In this document: one piece after another, positions 42,001-51,000 of the stretch
How the letters are laid out: every line of letters starts with the position of its first letter
How positions within the stretch are numbered: position 1 is the stretch's first letter
Assembly (NCBI GenBank): GCA_965215885.1
Contig: CBDCEW010000105.1
Coordinates: forward strand, 288,001-352,000
From: Candidatus Moanibacter sp.
Lineage (GTDB): Bacteria; Verrucomicrobiota; Verrucomicrobiia; Opitutales; UBA2987
Direction of reading: 5' to 3'
Length of the DNA stretch: 64,000 nt
Made by a program: the position numbers

Positions 42001-45000
42001 TTTCAGGCAGGAACTCGGACTGAAAGACAGCGCTCATATGCCGGGATCGGAAGCGATCGGGGCTAGGAATCCGTCGGACTTAGTATTCATGAGGCAGCCT
42101 TCGGCCGCAACCAAACTGTAAGACAGAAGAGGGGACACAGAGCGCCACAGAGAAGCATCACAGAGGCACACAGAGAGGACATGGGTGGACGATGTCCGTG
42201 TGAAGTTACGATTGTGCTTTGCTTCTCTGTGGCGCTCTGTGTGCCCGATTTACTCACGATTTAACCCTTTGTTCGTAGCTTACTTACCTAGCATATCTAC
42301 GCAAATTGCGTAGAAGTTATGGGATAAGACACTGACATCCTCGTGGTGAAGATTTCATGGTAACGGATCGACATTCCGACTCAGATGAGATCGACAGATT
42401 CCTTGTGTCTATGAGCCTGTCGGCAAGGGCTGACAGGCTGCTAAGCGAAGGCGGCTTCGTGAGCGACGATTCCGGAAATGGCTATGACAAGCCCTACGAG
42501 GAGTCCATAGGCAAGATGAGCAAGGAGATGAGCGACGCCTACTGAGAACCCTGCTTCACGAAACTCCTCGAGAGGATGTTCTTCAGCAATGGCGGCGACA
42601 AGGCCGAAACAGATAAGAATGCCGTGGCAAAATCCAAGGAAAAGACCCACTTGAATAACCCTCTCGGCGGTCATGGGCGCCATAATTTCAAACACCAGGG
42701 TGTAGAGCATCCCGAAAATCACTCCGGAAATGACATGAAGAGTGGAGCCGACGAGGAGGGCGGACTCGGTCGAGCGGGTGAAGAGGCTCCCCACGGCAAA
42801 GACCATTCTGGCGTTCGCGATGCCCGATTTTGTAATAACGTAGAGCAGGAGAGTCATGCCGGCGGTACCGACGAGACCCGCCAGAATGGAATAGACGAGA
42901 AAGGGCAAGACCTGTGGTGAAGAGAGTCATGCCGGCGGTACCGACGAGACCCGCCAGAATGGAATAGACGAGAAAGGGCAAGACCTGTGGTAATTCGACC
43001 ATTTAATTTTGCAAATTTACTCGTAAACGGAAAGTAATCAATCCCTGATTGAAGTTCGAATGCTGGAAATTTTTGCCACGGATTTCCTGGCGGAGCGAAG
43101 CCGCAATCCCGCTGAGCGGGAAGATGAGTCAGCAACGAATGAATGAAGGGCAACGAATGGGGCCTGTTAGAGCTTTGAAAGCAACGGATCAAGGTAAGGT
43201 AACGGATACTTTTCGCACAGATAGCAAGTGGTTGCGATAAACCAAACTGGTAGTTGCTTCCGTGGAGAAGAGATTTGAATCCCGGCGCGCCGGGAGAAAC
43301 AAAGATAAACGGAGGAGAATATGAGAGGAAGAAAAGCCCCACGGATTCGAGCCGTCTTCGCTTCGCTGCGCCGAGCCAGGGAAAATCACGGATTGAAGAA
43401 GAGGTGTCGAGACAACCGGAAAAAATCCAGAGACAATGAGTGAGAGTAACTCTATCGCAAGAGACATAAAGTCCGACAGGCTGCTGGGTCGCGTGTACGG
43501 GTCGGTGGCCATCTTGCTTTTTGGGATCCTGATGGGATCGTGCAGGAAGGCGCCGGAGTCGATTTCTTATCCGATCCGCGGACAGGTAATCTCGCTCTAC
43601 TCGGAGAACAACGAAATCACTTTGAAACACGAGGAGATCGAGGGCTTCATGCCGGCGATGACGATGCCCATAAAAGTGAGAGACGTCAGGATCCTGGTGG
43701 GGCTGGTCCCAGGTGATCTGGTGGAAGGAACGCTGGTAGTAACGAGGATGGAGAGCTACTTGTCTGAATTAGAGAAAGTGGGTTTCGATCAGCTGGAAAG
43801 CGCGATTACCCACATGCCGTCCGGGGTTCGGCTGGTGCGCAAGGGTGAAACGGTACCGGACATCTCTCTGATTGATCAGAATGGCCGAGAGCGAAACCTG
43901 TCAGACTTCAGAGGCAAGCCCCTGGCGCTGACCTTCATCTATACGCGCTGCCCTTTGCCGAATTTCTGCCCACTGATGGATCGCAATTTTGTCCGGGTGC
44001 AGGCAGCGATCCATGAGGGAACGCGATTGAGCAGAGACACACAGCTCCTATCCCTTACCTTTGATCCCGACTACGATACACCGGAAGTGCTGCGGAAACA
44101 TGGAGAAGCTCTTGGCGCGGATCAATCGATCTGGAATTTCGTCACGGGAGAACGCCGTGAAATTATTCACTTCGGTGAGCAATTCGGAATTACCGTGGTT
44201 CCGGGGAAGGACGATTCGGTCGACATAACGCATTCCTTGCGCACCGTTGTTGTCGATGAGAAAGGAAACCTCGTAAAGATATATCGCGGTAACGAGTGGA
44301 CGCCCGAAGGGTTGATTGAGGAGTTGGGGAAGGTGAGTCCCGGCAGGCCGGGAAATGAAGGGCAACGAAAGGGGGAGGGAGAAGGATGAAGCGCAGGAGG
44401 AAGTATCTGCCGACGGATGGGAATTGCCCGCTAAACACGCGAAAATGCGCGAAAGAGGGAGGTGTAGCAACGTGAGCTTTGTCGAGAGAGCGACAGAATA
44501 CCGCGACAAAGCTCACGACAAGGCTCGCGACAAAGAAACCCTGACGGGAAGAGAAGCTTCCTCTATCCTTCATCTTAAGCCTCCTCGAGAGAGCGAGAAA
44601 AGGCGACTAAGTTGACGACGAAGCTTACGACAAAGGTTTCGGTTGCATCCCCGTGTCTCCCCGTCTCCATTTTTCCCTCTCCGCCTTTTTTTGGTTGCGT
44701 CTACGCTGCGCTAGGATGATGGGAGGACGAAGACCGGAGACAGAGATTGGGGTTGAGGAAGCAGGAGGGAGAAACACAATCACTTTCTATTGTTCGTGGA
44801 GCGAGGTTTCACAGGTGATGAAGATTTCCCAGACTTTCGGGCGATGCGAACAATAGCACGATGACGGAATCATCACAGATAAAATCATATTTCGATCTGG
44901 AAGGGGATGGCGGCTCGCATGTGATGGAGCAGGTCCTGTCCCAGAAGGCCGAGATCGAGAAGAAATTATCCGGTATCAAGGAGATGGTCGCGATAGCCTC

Positions 45001-48000: not shown

Positions 48001-51000
48001 GTTATTGCGCGAAGAACGGGATACTACGAGTGACACCCAAAGTATTGGCGGACATTCGCAGCCGGATGCCGACGCCGAAGATTTTTGGGAAGAAAGAGGA
48101 GAGTAACGGATAGAAGGAAAGAAGATTTCTCACGCAACGGTCTTCGACCCGCGAGCGGGACTTCGCCCTGTCAAGAAGTCGCAAAGACGCAAAGATTTGA
48201 ATGGTGGAAGGGTGGGACGGGAAGGTTGTAGGTTTTTGGTGGTTGGGTGTTCAGAGGTCGGTGTTGGATTTACTGAGCTCCTGAGATTAGAAATTGGTTG
48301 GGTGAAATTGGCGGCAATTCGTTGACAACCTGAGAATTAATTGGATGCTGGCGTCTGATGGAAAACCGTGTTGGGTAATCGTATTTGAGCACTATGGAAT
48401 TCCCAGGCGAAAAGAACAAATAGAAGGCAAGATTTATGTACAAGTCCGTTCTGGTCCCGGTAGATAACTCAGAATATTCCAACCATGCCGTAAAGGTTGG
48501 TATCGAATTTGGAAAACGTTGTGATTCTAGGCTGACCGGTAATCACGTGTATGCCGCAAAGATGCATGATTATCGCTTCAAACAGATGGAGTTTACGCTA
48601 CCGGGGGAATACCTGCAGGAAGACGAACTGGAGCGACAGAGAAAGATCCATGACAGTCTGATCACGATGGGGTTGAAGCTCATTTCCGACTGCTACCTCA
48701 ATGACATGGATAAGCAGTGCAAAGAGGCGGGTGTGAAGATGGAGCGCAAGATGATGGACGGAAAGCATCATGTCGAACTTCTCAGGGACATCGAGGGTTC
48801 GAGCTACGACCTGACAATTCTGGGAATTAAAGGGATCGGGAAAACGAAGGACAGTCAGATCGGAGCAGTGTGCCACCAGATATCGAGCGAGGCCAAAGGT
48901 GATGTCTGGGTGGTAAAACATGTGCCGAAGGAGAATGAAGCGCCGAGGGACACGATTCTGGTCGGGATTGACGGAAGCCCGCAGTCATTTGGCGCTTTGA
49001 TGACGGCTGTCGATCTGGCCAGGAGATTCGAAAAAAAGCTCAGCCTGATTTCTGTATATGATCCCTACCTTCACTATATGGTATTCAATGGCATCGTTGA
49101 TGTGCTGACGGAGAGGGCGGCCAAGGTATTCAGATTCGAGGAACAGAATCAATTGCATGAGGAGATCATCGATACGGGGTTAGCGCAGATATATCAGTCG
49201 CATCTGGAGGTTGCGGCTCAGATGGCTAAGGATGAGGGAGTGGAAACCGACAAGGTGTTGCTTGATGGCAAAGCGTTCCAGAAGATGCTGGATTTTGCGC
49301 GCAAGAATCCACCTTGGGTTCTTGTTATAGGAAAAATCGGGGTGCATAGCGAAAACGGAACTTCTGGACTGGGGAGCAACACGGATAACCTTCTGAGACT
49401 TGCGCCCTGTGATGTTCTTCTGAGTTCGAAACTGGTGCATCCCAAACTCGATTTAAAAGCGGAAGAGAGCATCCAATGGACGCCGGAGGCTGAGGAACGG
49501 ATGGAACGCGTGCCCAAGCTGGTCAAAGGGATAGCGCGGACGGGCATTTTGCGACTTGCGGTTGAACAGGGGCACAGCGTGGTTACGAACTCGCTAATTG
49601 ATGAAGCTGTCGATCGATTTATGCCCAAAAGCGCAGCGAGGGCGACAAAGGACCTGGCGGAAGTCTTGGCGTTTGAAAAGGCGAGCCGAGGAGGCACAGC
49701 AATGTGCAGACACTGCGGCACGACAGCGACGGAAGAAAATCCCGTAAAATGTGCGGTTTGCGGAAATTCAGATTTTGAGCTGATTTCAGCCGAGATGGTT
49801 GACAAGATTGTGGCCTCGGAAGGGGGAAGCGAGGAGGAATCCACTTATGATGGGAAGAGACTCTCCTGGACGCGGGAGGCAAGGCGTCTCTTGCCTGCGA
49901 TAAAGGATAATTATCAAAAACGCCGTGCTAAGGCCTACATCGAAAAGGCTGCCCGCATACGCAAATTGAATACCGTAACTCTGGAATTCGCCGAGAAGTT
50001 CCTTGGGGAGCTTGGCCATGAAGAGAGCGTGAAAAGGCATCGCGAGGAGCGGGCCGATGGCGATTCGGCTGATTTGGAAGAATCGATCCTCGGAAACGGA
50101 ATGAAATTGATCGCTCGAGATAGTCAGAATAACCCGTTGAAGTCTGTCTTTGATTGGACGGAAGAGGCGGCGGAGCGCATTCTTCGGGTTCCTGCCGGAT
50201 TCATGCGCGACAGAGTGCAGAAAAAGGTTGAAGACATGGCCCTCGATGAGCGGATTTTTGAGATTGATCTCACTCTCATCGAGAGAGGAATTGCGGCCGG
50301 CCGGCAGATGATGGAAGAGATGCTGAAAACTGCCGGACTCGACCCGAATTCGGCCGGCAATGGAAATGGAAGGGAGGATGTTTCAGCGGTACCGGAGTAT
50401 ACCAGCACCCAGAGAAACGATTTCCCGCCTAATCATCCACCAAAAGAGATGATGAATGAAGAGGGAATCATGTCGGCGCTGGAGAAGAAGCGTTCAGGAA
50501 TGTGATCCGCAGTCCGAAGATTTTGAGGATCTCCGGACAGAAAGAGTGTTACCTAACGCGCTTTCGAATCAGGGTTTGTATCAGAAGAATCCGTCGGTCC
50601 CTAAGTCCGACAGATTCCCAATTTAGGTGCCTGTCGAATTTCGCTCATGGCCTCTTTTCGATTTTGTCGGCCGGATGATATAGAGGAGTTGGTCGATGCA
50701 GTCAACCGGACCTATCTCGTGCATTTTCCGGGTCTGGCTCCTATGACTGTGGAGACTTTCAAGAGGGAGATAAAGGAACTCAACTTGTGGACCAGCTCGT
50801 GTATGCTGGCGACAGAGGATAGTGGACCAGTAGCAGTGCTGATCGCGGCGAAGCGACGGCGCTCCTCAGTCATACTTCGCTTGGGCGTTCATCCCGGATT
50901 CCAGCGATTAGGATACGGCTCTCATCTATTGGATTCTCTGCAGAGTAAGATGCACGTTTTAGGTCCCCCTTTGCTCACTGTAGAACTTGAGGAAAGGGAC

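What a model noticed while it worked through the whole genome (the two positions that open the first line are those of the whole stretch)
44861..50505. AhbD-like radical SAM heme synthase with a BchB-type tail and partner proteins that share that tail
Four neighbouring genes form a conserved, undescribed module: an Mrp/NUBPL-type Fe-S carrier ATPase (g06030), a 161-174-aa protein with a Cys-rich zinc-ribbon-like head (g06031), a radical SAM/SPASM enzyme 39% identical over its whole core to the heme synthase AhbD (g06032) and a double universal-stress-protein (g06033). The last three all end in, or contain, the 45-residue PCP_red domain otherwise known from the C-terminus of the BchB/ChlB subunit of protochlorophyllide reductase. 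The genome has no other Ahb pathway gene and has a full classical heme pathway, so I propose that this is a self-contained oxygen-independent tetrapyrrole (coproheme-type) decarboxylase whose PCP_red tails tie the [...]
Evidence so far: Pfam rows and coordinates: calls 8, 58 (PCP_red at g06031 112-156, g06032 387-429, g06033 348-391 plus a second copy seen in the orthologue, call 94). Swiss-Prot: g06032 vs M. barkeri AhbD 38.9% over 355 residues, E 2e-78. 5,986 relatives at E<=0.001 among 8,000 scored, the best 120 all with Radical_SAM+SPASM+PCP_red, 62-96% identical, named at most 'radical SAM protein' or 'AdoMet-dependent heme synthase'. Genome loci: of 32 loci examined 29 hold an intact full-length enzyme (Opitutales, Poribacteria, Nitrospirota, Planctomycetota); 26 of the 29 have a second PCP_red protein beside it (double-Usp type in 19, small type in 15), 9 the Mrp/NUBPL ATPase, 21 a CopD-like membrane protein. 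neighbo [...]
(Added by a program. Inside this text positions count along the whole contig: contig position 288,001 is position 1 of the stretch shown here. "Call 12" and the like, gene names such as g00115 and contig names such as C1 are that model's own, and its searches are not shown. The text may have been shortened before it was handed on; [...] marks where a part breaks off. The agent that wrote the report below was given it as the finding of a first reader that could run no searches.)

Follow-up and report, generated by a model that had tools for sequence, protein, structure and literature searches.

The report
AhbD-like haem module beside bd-like oxidase
A radical-SAM enzyme closely resembling the oxygen-independent haem b synthase AhbD, together with helper proteins that share a small domain known from a chlorophyll enzyme, forms a conserved gene set that accompanies a poorly understood 'bd-like' respiratory oxidase, so it probably makes or hands over haem for that oxidase.

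Summary
The four genes are real and the domain calls hold. The radical SAM/SPASM enzyme belongs to a single PCP_red-tailed branch of the AhbD/NirJ2 family. It keeps the radical-SAM motif and all eight SPASM cysteines of AhbD, and differs from tail-less AhbD at only 4 fixed positions.

The four genes plus a GNAT gene are the soluble half of a larger set whose other half, also in this window, is an OR-N-type cytochrome bd-like oxidase with three cytochrome c genes. In Acidobacteriota all of these lie in one co-directional array. Every sampled genome with the oxidase also had PCP_red:
- 23 of 23 in 301 Acidobacteriota
- 113 of 113 in 301 Nitrospirota
- 1 of 1 in 301 Verrucomicrobiota

All 13 genomes with the tailed enzyme had the oxidase.

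PCP_red also sits on the haem-degrading radical SAM enzyme ChuW, so it recurs on tetrapyrrole enzymes.

In a published Nitrospira marina proteome, the apparent orthologues are abundant in air and not induced by low oxygen. That speaks against a purely hypoxic back-up role.

Best reading: an AhbD-type haem synthase and hand-over module serving the oxidase. Function is inferred, not shown. The scan has noted this module before on other DNA (8 notes).

The parts
43436..44389 (+). SCO1/SenC + CusF-like copper chaperone, upstream neighbour
   Evidence: Pfam SCO1-SenC 69.7 bits and CusF_Ec 35.5 bits. An SCO1 homologue is also present in L018, L040 and five Poribacteria loci.
44861..45790 (+). Mrp/NUBPL-type P-loop ATPase whose CxxC motif is degenerate in this lineage
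   Evidence: Pfam ParA 184.8 bits. NCBIfam MrpORP 167 bits (cut-off 450) and ApbC 123.8 bits (cut-off 348). In the alignment the second Cys of CxxC is lost in the three Opitutales sequences and kept in Poribacteria and L020. It is found in exactly the same 10 loci as the small protein.
46196..46714 (+). Small soluble protein: Cys4 zinc-ribbon head, disordered linker with an invariant (K/R)-C-P-F, and a C-terminal PCP_red domain
   Evidence: Pfam PCP_red 54.7 bits. C7, C10, C37, C40 and C97-P98-F99 are invariant (ORF numbering from 46190). In the AF2 model the PCP_red part has pLDDT 82-86 and the linker is below 50. Foldseek top hits are 2L09 and 2KRU (PCP_red domains), and the head resembles the NrdR zinc ribbon.
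46767..48113 (+). Radical SAM/SPASM enzyme of the AhbD/NirJ2 family with a C-terminal PCP_red tail (384-432)
   Evidence: Pfam domains. TIGR04545 297.1 bits and TIGR04055 293.6 bits, both with cut-off 500. Radical-SAM motif C21/C25/C28 and eight SPASM Cys are conserved. It falls in a single tailed clade inside the AhbD group.
48436..50505 (+). Tandem Usp + PCP_red + Cys4 ribbon + two more PCP_red; the most conserved partner
   Evidence: Pfam domains. Three repeats found with the custom profile. Present in 29 of 33 loci. In Nitrospirota it overlaps the radical SAM gene by 8 nt (L045: 7768-9873 and 9866-11248).
50647..51522 (+). GNAT-family acetyltransferase, a further conserved member
   Evidence: Pfam Acetyltransf_7 30.6 bits. 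Homologues lie beside the module in L018, L040, L019 and L020, and between the Usp and Mrp genes in L112 and L114.
52562..54280 (-). Dihaem cytochrome c fused to an EB_dh (haem b) domain, with a C-terminal membrane anchor
   Evidence: Pfam Cytochrom_C 95.2 bits and EB_dh 42.2 bits. One hydrophobic segment at 539-557. It lies next to the Usp gene in L034, L039 and L112-L116.
54208..55890 (-). Two cytochrome c genes (54208-55044 and 55045-55890)
   Evidence: Pfam. Syntenic in L018, L040, L034 and L039.
55887..57707 (-). Cytochrome bd-like oxidase subunit (OR-N type, about 13 hydrophobic segments)
   Evidence: Pfam Cyt_bd_oxida_I 87.4 bits over residues 28-260 only. Hydropathy. Family as described in bioRxiv 10.1101/2021.01.16.426971 (passages).
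57997..62018 (-). aa3-type haem-copper oxidase genes: COX2 57997-58788, unknown 58785-59282, COX3 59601-60206, COX1 60207-62018
   Evidence: Pfam. COX genes also flank the module in L019, L020, L114 and L115.

Best explanation
The four genes, together with the GNAT gene, are the cytoplasmic accessory half of an OR-N-type cytochrome bd-like oxidase cluster.

The 448-aa enzyme is an AhbD-type radical SAM decarboxylase:
- Its radical-SAM cluster cleaves SAM.
- The 5'-deoxyadenosyl radical attacks the two propionates of iron-coproporphyrin III (coprohaem) in turn.
- CO2 leaves and the surplus electrons exit through the two auxiliary [4Fe-4S] clusters, giving haem b.

The PCP_red tail and the PCP_red domains of the partners are small three-helix modules that recur on tetrapyrrole enzymes. 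I propose that they hold the enzyme and its partners together or pass the tetrapyrrole on, so that new haem reaches the bd-like oxidase and its cytochromes. The partners are:
- the tandem-Usp protein with three copies
- the zinc-ribbon protein, with one copy and a Cys-Pro motif

The Mrp-type ATPase would keep the enzyme's three Fe-S clusters loaded.

Shown:
- the domain content
- family placement
- conserved catalytic cysteines
- gene order
- co-occurrence with the oxidase

Inferred:
- the substrate
- any physical complex
- haem hand-over
- the role of each partner
For: 1. Family.
- The enzyme scores 297.1 bits on the AhbD model and 293.6 on NirJ2, against 155-159 on AhbC/NirJ/NirJ1.
- On a tree of 86 rows rooted on 7 AhbC-like neighbours, the 32 tailed enzymes form one branch (SH-aLRT 95) inside the AhbD group, with or without the tail columns.
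- C21/C25/C28 are invariant in the tailed sequences (32 of 32) and 98% conserved in the 43 tail-less ones. The eight SPASM Cys are invariant in 32 of 32 tailed and 43 of 43 tail-less AhbD.
- Their spacing (X27, X17, X37, X2, X5, X2, X17) fits the full motif that Fix et al. give for M. barkeri AhbD (PMC10452713, sections 3.1 and 4 read).
- 66 columns are >=90% conserved and identical in both groups; only 4 are fixed differences.

2. Link to haem genes.
- A HemY-family gene (TIGR00562 232-302 bits, cut-off 97.85) lies next to the enzyme in L019, L020 and L039.
- A ChdC-like gene lies 2 kb downstream in Poribacteria locus L023.

3. PCP_red sits on another tetrapyrrole enzyme.
- It is fused N-terminally to ChuW/HutW in two Verrucomicrobiota (424.8 and 410.7 bits, cut-off 400), beside flavodoxin.
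- The tail also matches BchB residues 470-520 directly (E 9e-4).

4. Link to the oxidase.
- All 13 of 13 genomes with the tailed enzyme hold a bd-like homologue (46-85% identity).
- Acidobacteriota sample of 301: PCP_red in 28, bd-like in 23, and all 23 are PCP_red-positive. In 22 of the 23 a PCP_red ORF lies within 10 kb on the same contig. Two of the 23, G362 and G465, are flagged unpublished; without them the count is 21 of 21.
- Nitrospirota sample of 301: bd-like in 113, all among the 147 PCP_red-positive genomes (I cross-tabulated from the tables by hand).
- Verrucomicrobiota sample of 301: bd-like only in G000.
- Four Acidobacteriota loci show a co-directional run: bd-like, cyt c, cyt c/EB_dh, Usp, (GNAT), Mrp, small, radical SAM; it is uninterrupted in L114, where Mrp and small overlap by 4 nt, while unassigned ORFs lie between the Usp and Mrp genes in L112 and L113 and one opposite-strand ORF lies there in L115.
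- L034 and L039 run bd-like, cyt c, cyt c, cyt c/EB_dh, Usp, radical SAM.

5. Expression.
- In the N. marina proteome (PMC8115632, supplementary file 4), adjacent genes annotated as a 699-aa Usp and a 460-aa radical SAM/SPASM protein give 112/132/125 and 38/43/44 spectral counts in air. HemY gives 9/4/9 and UroD 17/20/13.
- Orthology is inferred from annotation, length and adjacency only.
Against: - No activity or binding was measured.
- The enzyme is below the curated cut-offs of both AhbD models. Bona fide bacterial AhbD beside AhbC also score only 331-371 on TIGR04545.
- The window's genome and 5 other genomes use HemF, the protoporphyrin route. Coprohaem would exist there only if HemY and HemH also accept the copro-substrates. 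This is known for some HemY (PMC5095920, passages) but was not tested here.
- All 13 genomes already have HemF or a ChdC-family protein. In Nitrospira this is a cytoplasmic HemQ-like protein that is expressed. A second haem synthase is therefore not obviously needed.
- In Nitrospira the Usp/radical SAM pair is not next to a bd-like gene.
- 34 Nitrospirota genomes have PCP_red without a bd-like hit at E <= 1e-40. I examined two. G852 has cyt c, cyt c/EB_dh, Usp and radical SAM on a contig that ends where the oxidase would lie. G614 has the Usp/radical SAM pair with no cytochrome nearby.
- PCP_red has no conserved Cys, His, Met or Tyr that could ligate haem iron.
- The Mrp homologue of this lineage has lost half of its CxxC motif.
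- Related genomes are not independent, so the co-occurrence counts overstate the number of independent events.
Confidence: 0.5

Rival explanations
1. A general oxygen-independent back-up haem synthase. The enzyme replaces HemF or ChdC when oxygen or peroxide is scarce. It sits near the bd-like oxidase only because both belong to a low-oxygen regulon, much as hemN lies beside cbb3 oxidase genes in Proteobacteria (recalled, not checked here).
For: - The AhbD-like core is as in the best explanation.
- Every one of 13 genomes has an oxygen-dependent counterpart: HemF in 6 and a ChdC-family protein in 7, perfectly complementary.
- Only 3 of 13 have a HemN above cut-off.
- Stand-alone AhbD in organisms of the coproporphyrin route is already described (PMC13564367, passages).
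- A Usp partner fits stress regulation.
Against: - The apparent N. marina orthologues are abundant in air and not raised at low O2 (Usp log2FC -0.01; radical SAM -0.66, not significant). Four other Usp proteins rise strongly.
- The oxidase never occurs without PCP_red in three phylum samples, and the genes share one array. That is tighter than a shared regulon requires.
- HemY, which would have to precede it, still needs oxygen.
Confidence: 0.2
2. A tailoring enzyme that makes a non-standard haem for the bd-like oxidase, for example a partly decarboxylated haem or one modified at other side chains, rather than ordinary haem b.
For: - The oxidase and the module co-occur strictly.
- The haem content of OR-N oxidases is unknown. 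The preprint says all family members keep the ligand of the active-site haem (10.1101/2021.01.16.426971, passages).
- The tailed clade is a separate branch. Two of its four fixed differences (A/P237, H/Q242) flank C239, which aligns with an AuxI-type cysteine. Fix et al. link that cluster to handling of the monovinyl intermediate.
- The genomes already have another way to make haem b.
Against: - Only 4 fixed differences stand against 66 shared conserved columns, which suggests the same substrate and reaction.
- No other tailoring enzyme is conserved in the cluster.
- HemY and ChdC neighbours point to the ordinary pathway.
Confidence: 0.13
3. The PCP_red partners form a redox or regulatory relay rather than a haem hand-over. 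PCP_red would be a docking module that brings rubredoxin-like ribbons (or flavodoxin) to Fe-S enzymes, or the Usp protein would sense tetrapyrrole or ATP and control the enzyme.
For: - Cys4 ribbons accompany PCP_red in the small protein and the Usp protein.
- Weak rubredoxin-like hits appear in orthologues (RUBY_RBDX E 1e-4 to 6e-6) and in multi-repeat PCP_red proteins.
- All three enzyme classes that carry PCP_red (BchB, AhbD-like, ChuW) also receive or give electrons through Fe-S clusters.
- Flavodoxin lies beside the ChuW fusions.
- AhbD needs an unknown electron acceptor (PMC10452713, section 4).
- Of 80 long PCP_red proteins scanned, 43 carry Usp domains.
Against: - The ribbon head resembles zinc ribbons such as that of NrdR, not an established redox centre.
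- No data show binding.
Confidence: 0.12

Closest known systems
AhbD / NirJ2, radical SAM haem b synthase (M. barkeri, Desulfovibrio; TIGR04545, TIGR04055)
   Same: - Radical SAM + SPASM core.
- CX3CX2C motif and the full eight-Cys SPASM motif.
- 66 shared conserved columns.
- Tree position inside the AhbD group.
   Different: - It is a separate branch with a 45-residue PCP_red tail.
- It is below both curated cut-offs (297 and 294 against 500).
- It occurs in aerobes that lack AhbA/B/C.
- It is always accompanied by PCP_red partner proteins and an OR-N oxidase.
Stand-alone AhbD of Gram-positive bacteria with the coproporphyrin-dependent route
   Same: An AhbD-type enzyme without other Ahb genes, beside HemY/HemH/ChdC-type pathways (PMC13564367, passages). 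Coriobacteriia and Thermoanaerobacteraceae examples are in the tree.
   Different: - Those enzymes are tail-less and reach the NirJ2 cut-off (522-571 bits).
- They have no Usp, small or Mrp partners in the 47 tail-less loci.
- Six of 13 carriers of the tailed form use HemF, not ChdC.
C-terminal PCP_red domain of BchB/ChlB (dark protochlorophyllide reductase); isolated domains 2KRU and 2L09
   Same: Same Pfam family and three-helix fold.
   Different: - No nitrogenase-like domain and no chlorophyll genes are present here.
- What the domain does in BchB was not found. One paper says a BchB C-terminal helix covers the substrate cavity (PMC4071322, one passage), but that helix may not be PCP_red.
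ChuW/HutW, anaerobic haem-degrading radical SAM methyltransferase
   Same: Some members (G117, G065) carry PCP_red, here at the N-terminus. This is a second radical SAM enzyme acting on haem that has the same accessory domain.
   Different: It has a HemN-like core rather than SPASM, catalyses the opposite reaction (ring opening), and is absent from the window.
hemN beside ccoNOQP/fixNOQP, and the HemN-like haem chaperone HemW (both recalled, not checked here)
   Same: A haem-related radical SAM protein genetically or functionally tied to a respiratory enzyme.
   Different: The enzyme family, the oxidase family and the PCP_red/Usp partner set are all different.

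Membership tests
AhbD/NirJ2 haem b synthase | Radical SAM CX3CX2C motif | tested here: met
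   C21, C25 and C28 are invariant in 32 of 32 tailed sequences and 98% conserved in the 43 tail-less ones.
AhbD/NirJ2 haem b synthase | Full SPASM motif with eight Cys (CX20-33CX17CX36-37CX2CX5CX2CX17-35C; Fix et al. 2023) | tested here: met
   C239-X27-C267-X17-C285-X37-C323-X2-C326-X5-C332-X2-C335-X17-C353, invariant in both groups. Four of these Cys are missing in the AhbC-like neighbours.
AhbD/NirJ2 haem b synthase | Score above the curated cut-off of TIGR04545 or TIGR04055 | tested here: not met
   297.1 and 293.6 bits against 500. Tailed orthologues score 298.5-324.9 on the two models. Tail-less bacterial AhbD beside AhbC score 480-571 on TIGR04055 and 331-371 on TIGR04545. An AhbC-like protein scores 212.
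AhbD/NirJ2 haem b synthase | Groups with AhbD rather than AhbC/NirJ on a tree | tested here: met
   The tailed clade (32 rows, SH-aLRT 95) lies inside the AhbD group when rooted on 7 AhbC-like rows, and also without the tail columns. These are quick searches with LG+G4 and no bootstraps.
AhbD/NirJ2 haem b synthase | Context of a pathway that supplies coprohaem (AhbA/B/C, or CgoX + CpfC) | tested here: inconclusive
   - The own genome has no AhbA/B and no ChdC; it has HemF, HemY and HemH.
- HemY is adjacent in 3 loci.
- A ChdC-like gene is adjacent in Poribacteria locus L023.
AhbD/NirJ2 haem b synthase | Converts iron-coproporphyrin III to haem b | not testable with these tools
   Needs an anoxic enzyme assay.
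PCP_red (PF08369) | Pfam gathering score and three-helix fold | tested here: met
   Scores of 54.7, 46.1 and 69.5 bits against a cut-off of 32.5. The model matches 2KRU (TM 0.78, rmsd 0.9) and 2L09.
Mrp/ApbC/NUBPL Fe-S carrier ATPase | Deviant Walker A and C-terminal CxxC that bridges a [4Fe-4S] cluster (role of the motif recalled) | tested here: not met
   The Walker A motif is present. CxxC is kept in Poribacteria and L020, but its second Cys is lost in the window, L018 and L040. NCBIfam scores are below cut-off (167 against 450; 123.8 against 348).
OR-N cytochrome bd-like oxidase (neighbour) | CydA-like N-terminal helices without the quinol site, with more helices than canonical CydA | tested here: inconclusive
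   Pfam Cyt_bd_oxida_I matches residues 28-260 only. There are about 13 hydrophobic segments by a crude hydropathy scan. It is 50-52% identical to Nitrospira bd-like proteins. The subfamily was not typed against reference sequences.
HemJ protoporphyrinogen oxidase (considered for the CopD-like neighbour in other loci) | Match to PF03653 | tested here: not met
   The CopD-like proteins match only CopD/DUF4149 weakly. The weak PF03653 hit in Nitrospira G010 lies about 1.3 Mb from its rSAM locus; the positions of those in G008, G011, G012 and G013 relative to the loci were not compared. The gene is absent from the window.

The most novel reading that the evidence does not exclude
The module is the dedicated cofactor-maturation system of OR-N bd-like oxidases, the main terminal oxidases of Nitrospira. 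The AhbD-like enzyme would finish a haem on, or hand it directly to, the oxidase, possibly as a haem species other than plain haem b. PCP_red would be a previously unrecognised tetrapyrrole-handling domain shared by enzymes that make chlorophyll, make haem and break haem.
Probability: 0.2. Interest if true: 0.85.

Novelty: new variant of a known kind. Interest (0 to 1): 0.64.

Why it matters
- **The oxidase.** OR-N bd-like oxidases are thought to be the main oxygen reductases of nitrite-oxidising Nitrospira, and they occur in Acidobacteriota, Poribacteria, Planctomycetota and some Verrucomicrobiota. Their cofactors, oxygen affinity and assembly are unknown (PMC12342949 and 10.1101/2021.01.16.426971, passages). 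A conserved cytoplasmic gene set that always travels with them gives concrete candidates for how they obtain their haem, and a handle for producing them in other hosts.
- **The enzyme.** An AhbD-type radical SAM enzyme with three oxygen-labile clusters appears to be made in quantity by an aerobe growing in air. That widens the accepted view of AhbD as an anaerobe's enzyme.
- **The domain.** PCP_red has had solved structures since 2010 but no assigned function. It now has a testable one.
- **Prior description.** I found no paper describing the module. Searches for 'PCP_red' (6 papers, none relevant), 'bd-like' + 'radical SAM' (0), four combined terms (0), 'AhbD' + 'Nitrospira' (5, none on this) and 'asr4154' (0) gave nothing. 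Supplements of the bd-superfamily preprint could not be seen.

Tried and rejected
- **Complex prediction** of the enzyme with the small protein: no verdict (score 0.00, controls not run). It says nothing either way.
- **Sole haem synthase of Nitrospira:** rejected. G010 has a cytoplasmic HemQ-like protein (136 bits on HemQ_actino, cut-off 235), and a 235-aa 'chlorite dismutase' is expressed in N. marina.
- **Induction by hypoxia:** not seen in the N. marina proteome.
- **CopD-like neighbour as a HemJ-type oxidase:** no support.
- **Replacement for a missing HemN:** rejected, because G003, G012 and G013 have HemF, a true HemN and the module.
- **What PCP_red does in BchB:** five DPOR papers or reviews were searched by passages. 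Only one remark about a 'C-terminal helix' covering the cavity turned up, so the question is unresolved.
- **Census of PCP_red architectures using the tail as query:** returned only the same architecture, 115 of 122.
- **Profile search:** 2324 representative proteins had E <= 0.001 and the best 150 were listed. I scanned the 80 that are 300 aa or longer. Of these, 43 carry Usp, 6 radical SAM/SPASM, 1 a haem-oxygenase-like domain, and 30 PCP_red alone or with a ribbon. The list is biased towards multi-repeat proteins.
- **Rfam scan of 42000-58000:** nothing.
- **Promoter and terminator patterns:** 0 promoters, and 8 terminators against 8.8 expected.
- **Atlas look-up of the small protein:** only PCP_red clusters.

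Full report
**What is there.**

The window carries, on the + strand:
- an Mrp/NUBPL-type ATPase (44861-45790)
- a small PCP_red protein (ORF 46190-46714)
- a radical SAM/SPASM/PCP_red enzyme (46767-48113)
- a tandem-Usp protein with PCP_red (48436-50505)

A profile built from the window's own copies shows three PCP_red repeats in the Usp protein (345-394, 476-522, 571-620) and one each in the other two. PF08369 hits nothing else in this 6.36-Mb assembly, which is 90.3% complete with 5.47% contamination.

The small gene most likely starts at the ATG at 46196. Nine orthologues align from there with four invariant Cys (two CxxC knuckles) and an invariant (K/R)-C-P-F in an otherwise variable linker. 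An AlphaFold model gives a four-stranded ribbon, a disordered linker and a confident three-helix PCP_red. The model's best structural matches are the two solved PCP_red domains 2L09 and 2KRU, and zinc ribbons match the head. The C-P-F resembles a haem regulatory Cys-Pro motif. That resemblance is recalled, not tested.

**The enzyme.**

NCBIfam places it between the archaeal AhbD model (297.1 bits) and the bacterial NirJ2 model (293.6 bits). Both scores are below the cut-off of 500, and both are far above AhbC/NirJ/NirJ1 (155-159 bits). For calibration:
- Tail-less bacterial enzymes that lie beside an AhbC-like gene score 480-571 on NirJ2 but only 331-371 on the AhbD model.
- An AhbC-like protein scores 212 on the AhbD model.
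- Tailed orthologues from Nitrospira and Poribacteria score 298.5-324.9 on the two models.

A scan of one genome per species gave 80 loci. I treated 32 of them as the tailed clade; L034 and L041 are cut by contig ends. On a tree of 86 rows (32 tailed, 47 tail-less, 7 AhbC-like as root), the tailed enzymes form one branch with SH-aLRT 95. They sit inside the AhbD group, next to the tail-less bacterial and some archaeal AhbD. The result is the same when only core residues 8-360 are used. These were quick searches without bootstraps, and several long branches were flagged.

The radical-SAM cysteines are invariant in the tailed group and 98% conserved in the tail-less one, and the eight further cysteines are invariant in both groups. 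Their spacing fits the full SPASM motif that Fix et al. showed to bind two auxiliary clusters in M. barkeri AhbD. Sixty-six columns are conserved and identical in both groups, and only four are fixed differences (T/S75, I/L88, A/P237, H/Q242). I read this as the same chemistry on the same or a very similar substrate.

**Haem pathway around it.**

The own genome has HemH, HemY and HemF close together on contig C90. It has no ChdC, no HemJ, no AhbA/B-type domain, and only HemN-like proteins below cut-off (188.5 and 124.1 bits against 325).

Across 13 genomes that carry the tailed enzyme:
- A ChdC-family protein is found in 7 and HemF in the other 6, with no overlap.
- A true HemN is found in 3.
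- A true HemJ is found in 2.
- HemY is found in 11.

The enzyme is therefore always an addition to an oxygen-dependent decarboxylase, never the only candidate. Two links to haem genes exist. A HemY-family gene lies next to the enzyme in L019, L020 and L039. A ChdC-like gene, a DUF420 gene and a HEAT-repeat gene follow it in Poribacteria locus L023.

**The missed context.**

On the minus strand, right after the module, lie:
- a dihaem cytochrome c/EB_dh fusion
- two cytochrome c genes
- a 606-aa protein whose first 260 residues match cytochrome bd subunit I
- an aa3 oxidase

An SCO1/CusF gene precedes the module. The 606-aa protein has about 13 hydrophobic segments and is 50-52% identical to Nitrospira bd-like proteins. 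That fits the OR-N family of Murali et al., who describe 14-helix OR-N1/N2 forms found in operons with alternative electron donors (passages).

The two Opitutales relatives L018 and L040 share the whole arrangement. In L034 and L039 the order is bd-like, cyt c, cyt c, cyt c/EB_dh, Usp, radical SAM on one strand. In four Acidobacteriota genomes it is bd-like, cyt c, cyt c/EB_dh, Usp, (GNAT), Mrp, small, radical SAM, uninterrupted with overlapping stops and starts in L114 and with one to three extra ORFs between the Usp and Mrp genes in the other three, and COX genes lie beside it in two of them (L114, L115). The GNAT gene of the window (50647-51522) is therefore a member too.

**Co-occurrence.**
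- All 13 of 13 genomes with the tailed enzyme have a bd-like homologue.
- In 301 Acidobacteriota, PCP_red occurs in 28 and the bd-like protein (E <= 1e-40) in 23. All 23 are among the 28, and none of the 273 PCP_red-negative genomes has the oxidase. In 22 of the 23 a PCP_red ORF lies within 10 kb on the same contig. G362 and G465 are flagged unpublished; without them the count is 21 of 21.
- The five PCP_red-only genomes there have one or two isolated hits of other sizes, which I did not examine.
- In 301 Nitrospirota, 113 have the oxidase and all 113 are among the 147 PCP_red-positive genomes.
- Of the 34 Nitrospirota genomes with PCP_red only, I looked at two. G852 has cyt c, cyt c/EB_dh, a Usp protein without PCP_red and the tailed enzyme on a contig that ends where the oxidase gene would be. 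G614 has the Usp/enzyme pair alone.
- In 301 Verrucomicrobiota the oxidase is found only in the window's genome, and PCP_red in five genomes.

The dependence looks one-way: the oxidase is not seen without PCP_red proteins, while the pair can perhaps occur without the oxidase. Related genomes are not independent, and PF08369 counts any PCP_red protein, not the enzyme itself.

**PCP_red.**

Two of the other Verrucomicrobiota PCP_red proteins that I fetched (G117 and G065; G263 was not examined) are ChuW/HutW enzymes, the anaerobic haem-degrading radical SAM methyltransferase. They score 424.8 and 410.7 bits (cut-off 400), carry PCP_red at the N-terminus, and lie beside flavodoxin genes. With BchB, that makes three unrelated enzyme cores acting on tetrapyrroles that carry this domain. 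One representative also fuses it to a haem-oxygenase-like domain (P0166).

Across 131 copies, the conserved positions are a Trp, an Ala, an Arg, a Pro, a Phe, an Arg, a Lys, an Ala and a Gly, with no conserved metal ligand. The basic and aromatic residues could hold a carboxylated macrocycle or an acidic partner. I cannot tell which.

**Expression.**

The N. marina proteome of Bayer et al. (PMC8115632; section 16 and supplementary file 4 read by search) lists adjacent genes 2597410680 (Usp family, 699 aa) and 2597410681 (radical SAM/SPASM, 460 aa). Their sizes, order and annotations match the Nitrospira pair in my loci. This match is an inference.

| Protein | Counts in air | Counts at low O2 |
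|---|---|---|
| Usp family, 699 aa | 112, 132, 125 | 132, 97, 128 |
| Radical SAM/SPASM, 460 aa | 38, 43, 44 | 32, 18, 27 |
| 'Chlorite dismutase', 235 aa | 54, 43, 57 | 52, 46, 47 |
| HemY | 9, 4, 9 | 7, 1, 4 |
| UroD | 17, 20, 13 | 5, 4, 3 |

Neither the Usp protein nor the radical SAM protein changes significantly. Four other Usp proteins rise up to 263-fold. I took the first three columns as air because that fits the sign of the fold changes. The pair is thus made in air at levels above other haem-pathway enzymes.

**Reading.**

The chemistry is most likely that of AhbD. The biology is most likely tied to the bd-like oxidase: supply or hand-over of haem, with the PCP_red proteins as tethers or carriers and the ATPase keeping the clusters loaded. 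In the window's lineage the ATPase has lost the second Cys of its CxxC, which weakens that last point.

The hypoxic back-up reading favoured by several earlier notes of this scan shares the chemistry, but it fits the proteome and the strict one-way co-occurrence less well. A tailoring role for a special haem cannot be excluded. Nothing here shows binding or activity.

**Earlier notes.**

After I had formed this reading, a look-up by sequence returned eight notes on other genomes that describe the same module beside bd-like oxidases. They agree with the module and the AhbD likeness, but they are not independent evidence. New here:
- the co-occurrence tables
- the HemF/ChdC complementarity
- the ChuW fusion
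- the conserved-column comparison
- the proteome data against hypoxic induction

Noticed in passing
window:42849-42991: An exact 70-nt direct duplication (42849-42918 and 42922-42991, spacing 73) overlaps the 5' end of the DUF6789 membrane-protein gene (42441-42908, minus strand). It may be a recent duplication affecting its start. A second DUF6789 gene lies at 63196-63735, and a homologue sits beside the module in L020.
   Followed up: no
window:44368-44467 and 52429-52528; 43265-43325 and 45777-45837: Two families of intergenic repeats (100 nt and 61 nt, 80% identical) lie at gene ends around the module, in its unusually long intergenic gaps (about 300-470 nt). The Acidobacteriota versions of the cluster have overlapping genes instead. 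Copy number in the genome was not checked.
   Followed up: partly
window:19828-21498, 29391-30662, 35931-36946, 39366-39938: Two DDE transposases, an integrase fragment and an aminoglycoside 3-N-acetyltransferase family gene split into two overlapping ORFs lie upstream of the cluster. The bd-like oxidase occurs in only 1 of 301 sampled Verrucomicrobiota, and its closest non-Opitutales relatives are Acidobacteriota at up to 73% identity. Together this suggests the whole oxidase-plus-module region was acquired horizontally.
   Followed up: no
L106:7013-8566 and L107:7006-8574: ChuW/HutW-type haem-degrading radical SAM enzymes with an N-terminal PCP_red domain, next to flavodoxin genes (and DUF2023 in L106), in two other Verrucomicrobiota.
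   Followed up: partly
P0166 (463 aa): A protein with a rubredoxin-like ribbon, three PCP_red repeats and a haem-oxygenase-like (Haem_oxygenas_2) domain. Six other representatives fuse the radical SAM/SPASM enzyme to two or more PCP_red repeats.
   Followed up: no
window:44861-45790; L018:8319-9200; L040:6145-7026: The Mrp-type ATPase has an invariant N-terminal K-x-Y-x-D-L-x-x-D-G-G-S stretch in all eight orthologues. In the three Opitutales it has lost the second Cys of CxxC.
   Followed up: partly
L045:4384-7019: In Nitrospira the Usp/radical SAM pair is preceded, divergently, by SAM synthetase and S-adenosylhomocysteine hydrolase genes, and followed by a CopD-like membrane protein, the GTPase Der and a cytochrome c.
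   Followed up: no
window:52019-52450: A 143-aa ORF with about three hydrophobic segments, no Pfam or NCBIfam match and no homologue in the related loci lies between the GNAT gene and the cytochrome genes. It may not be a gene.
   Followed up: partly
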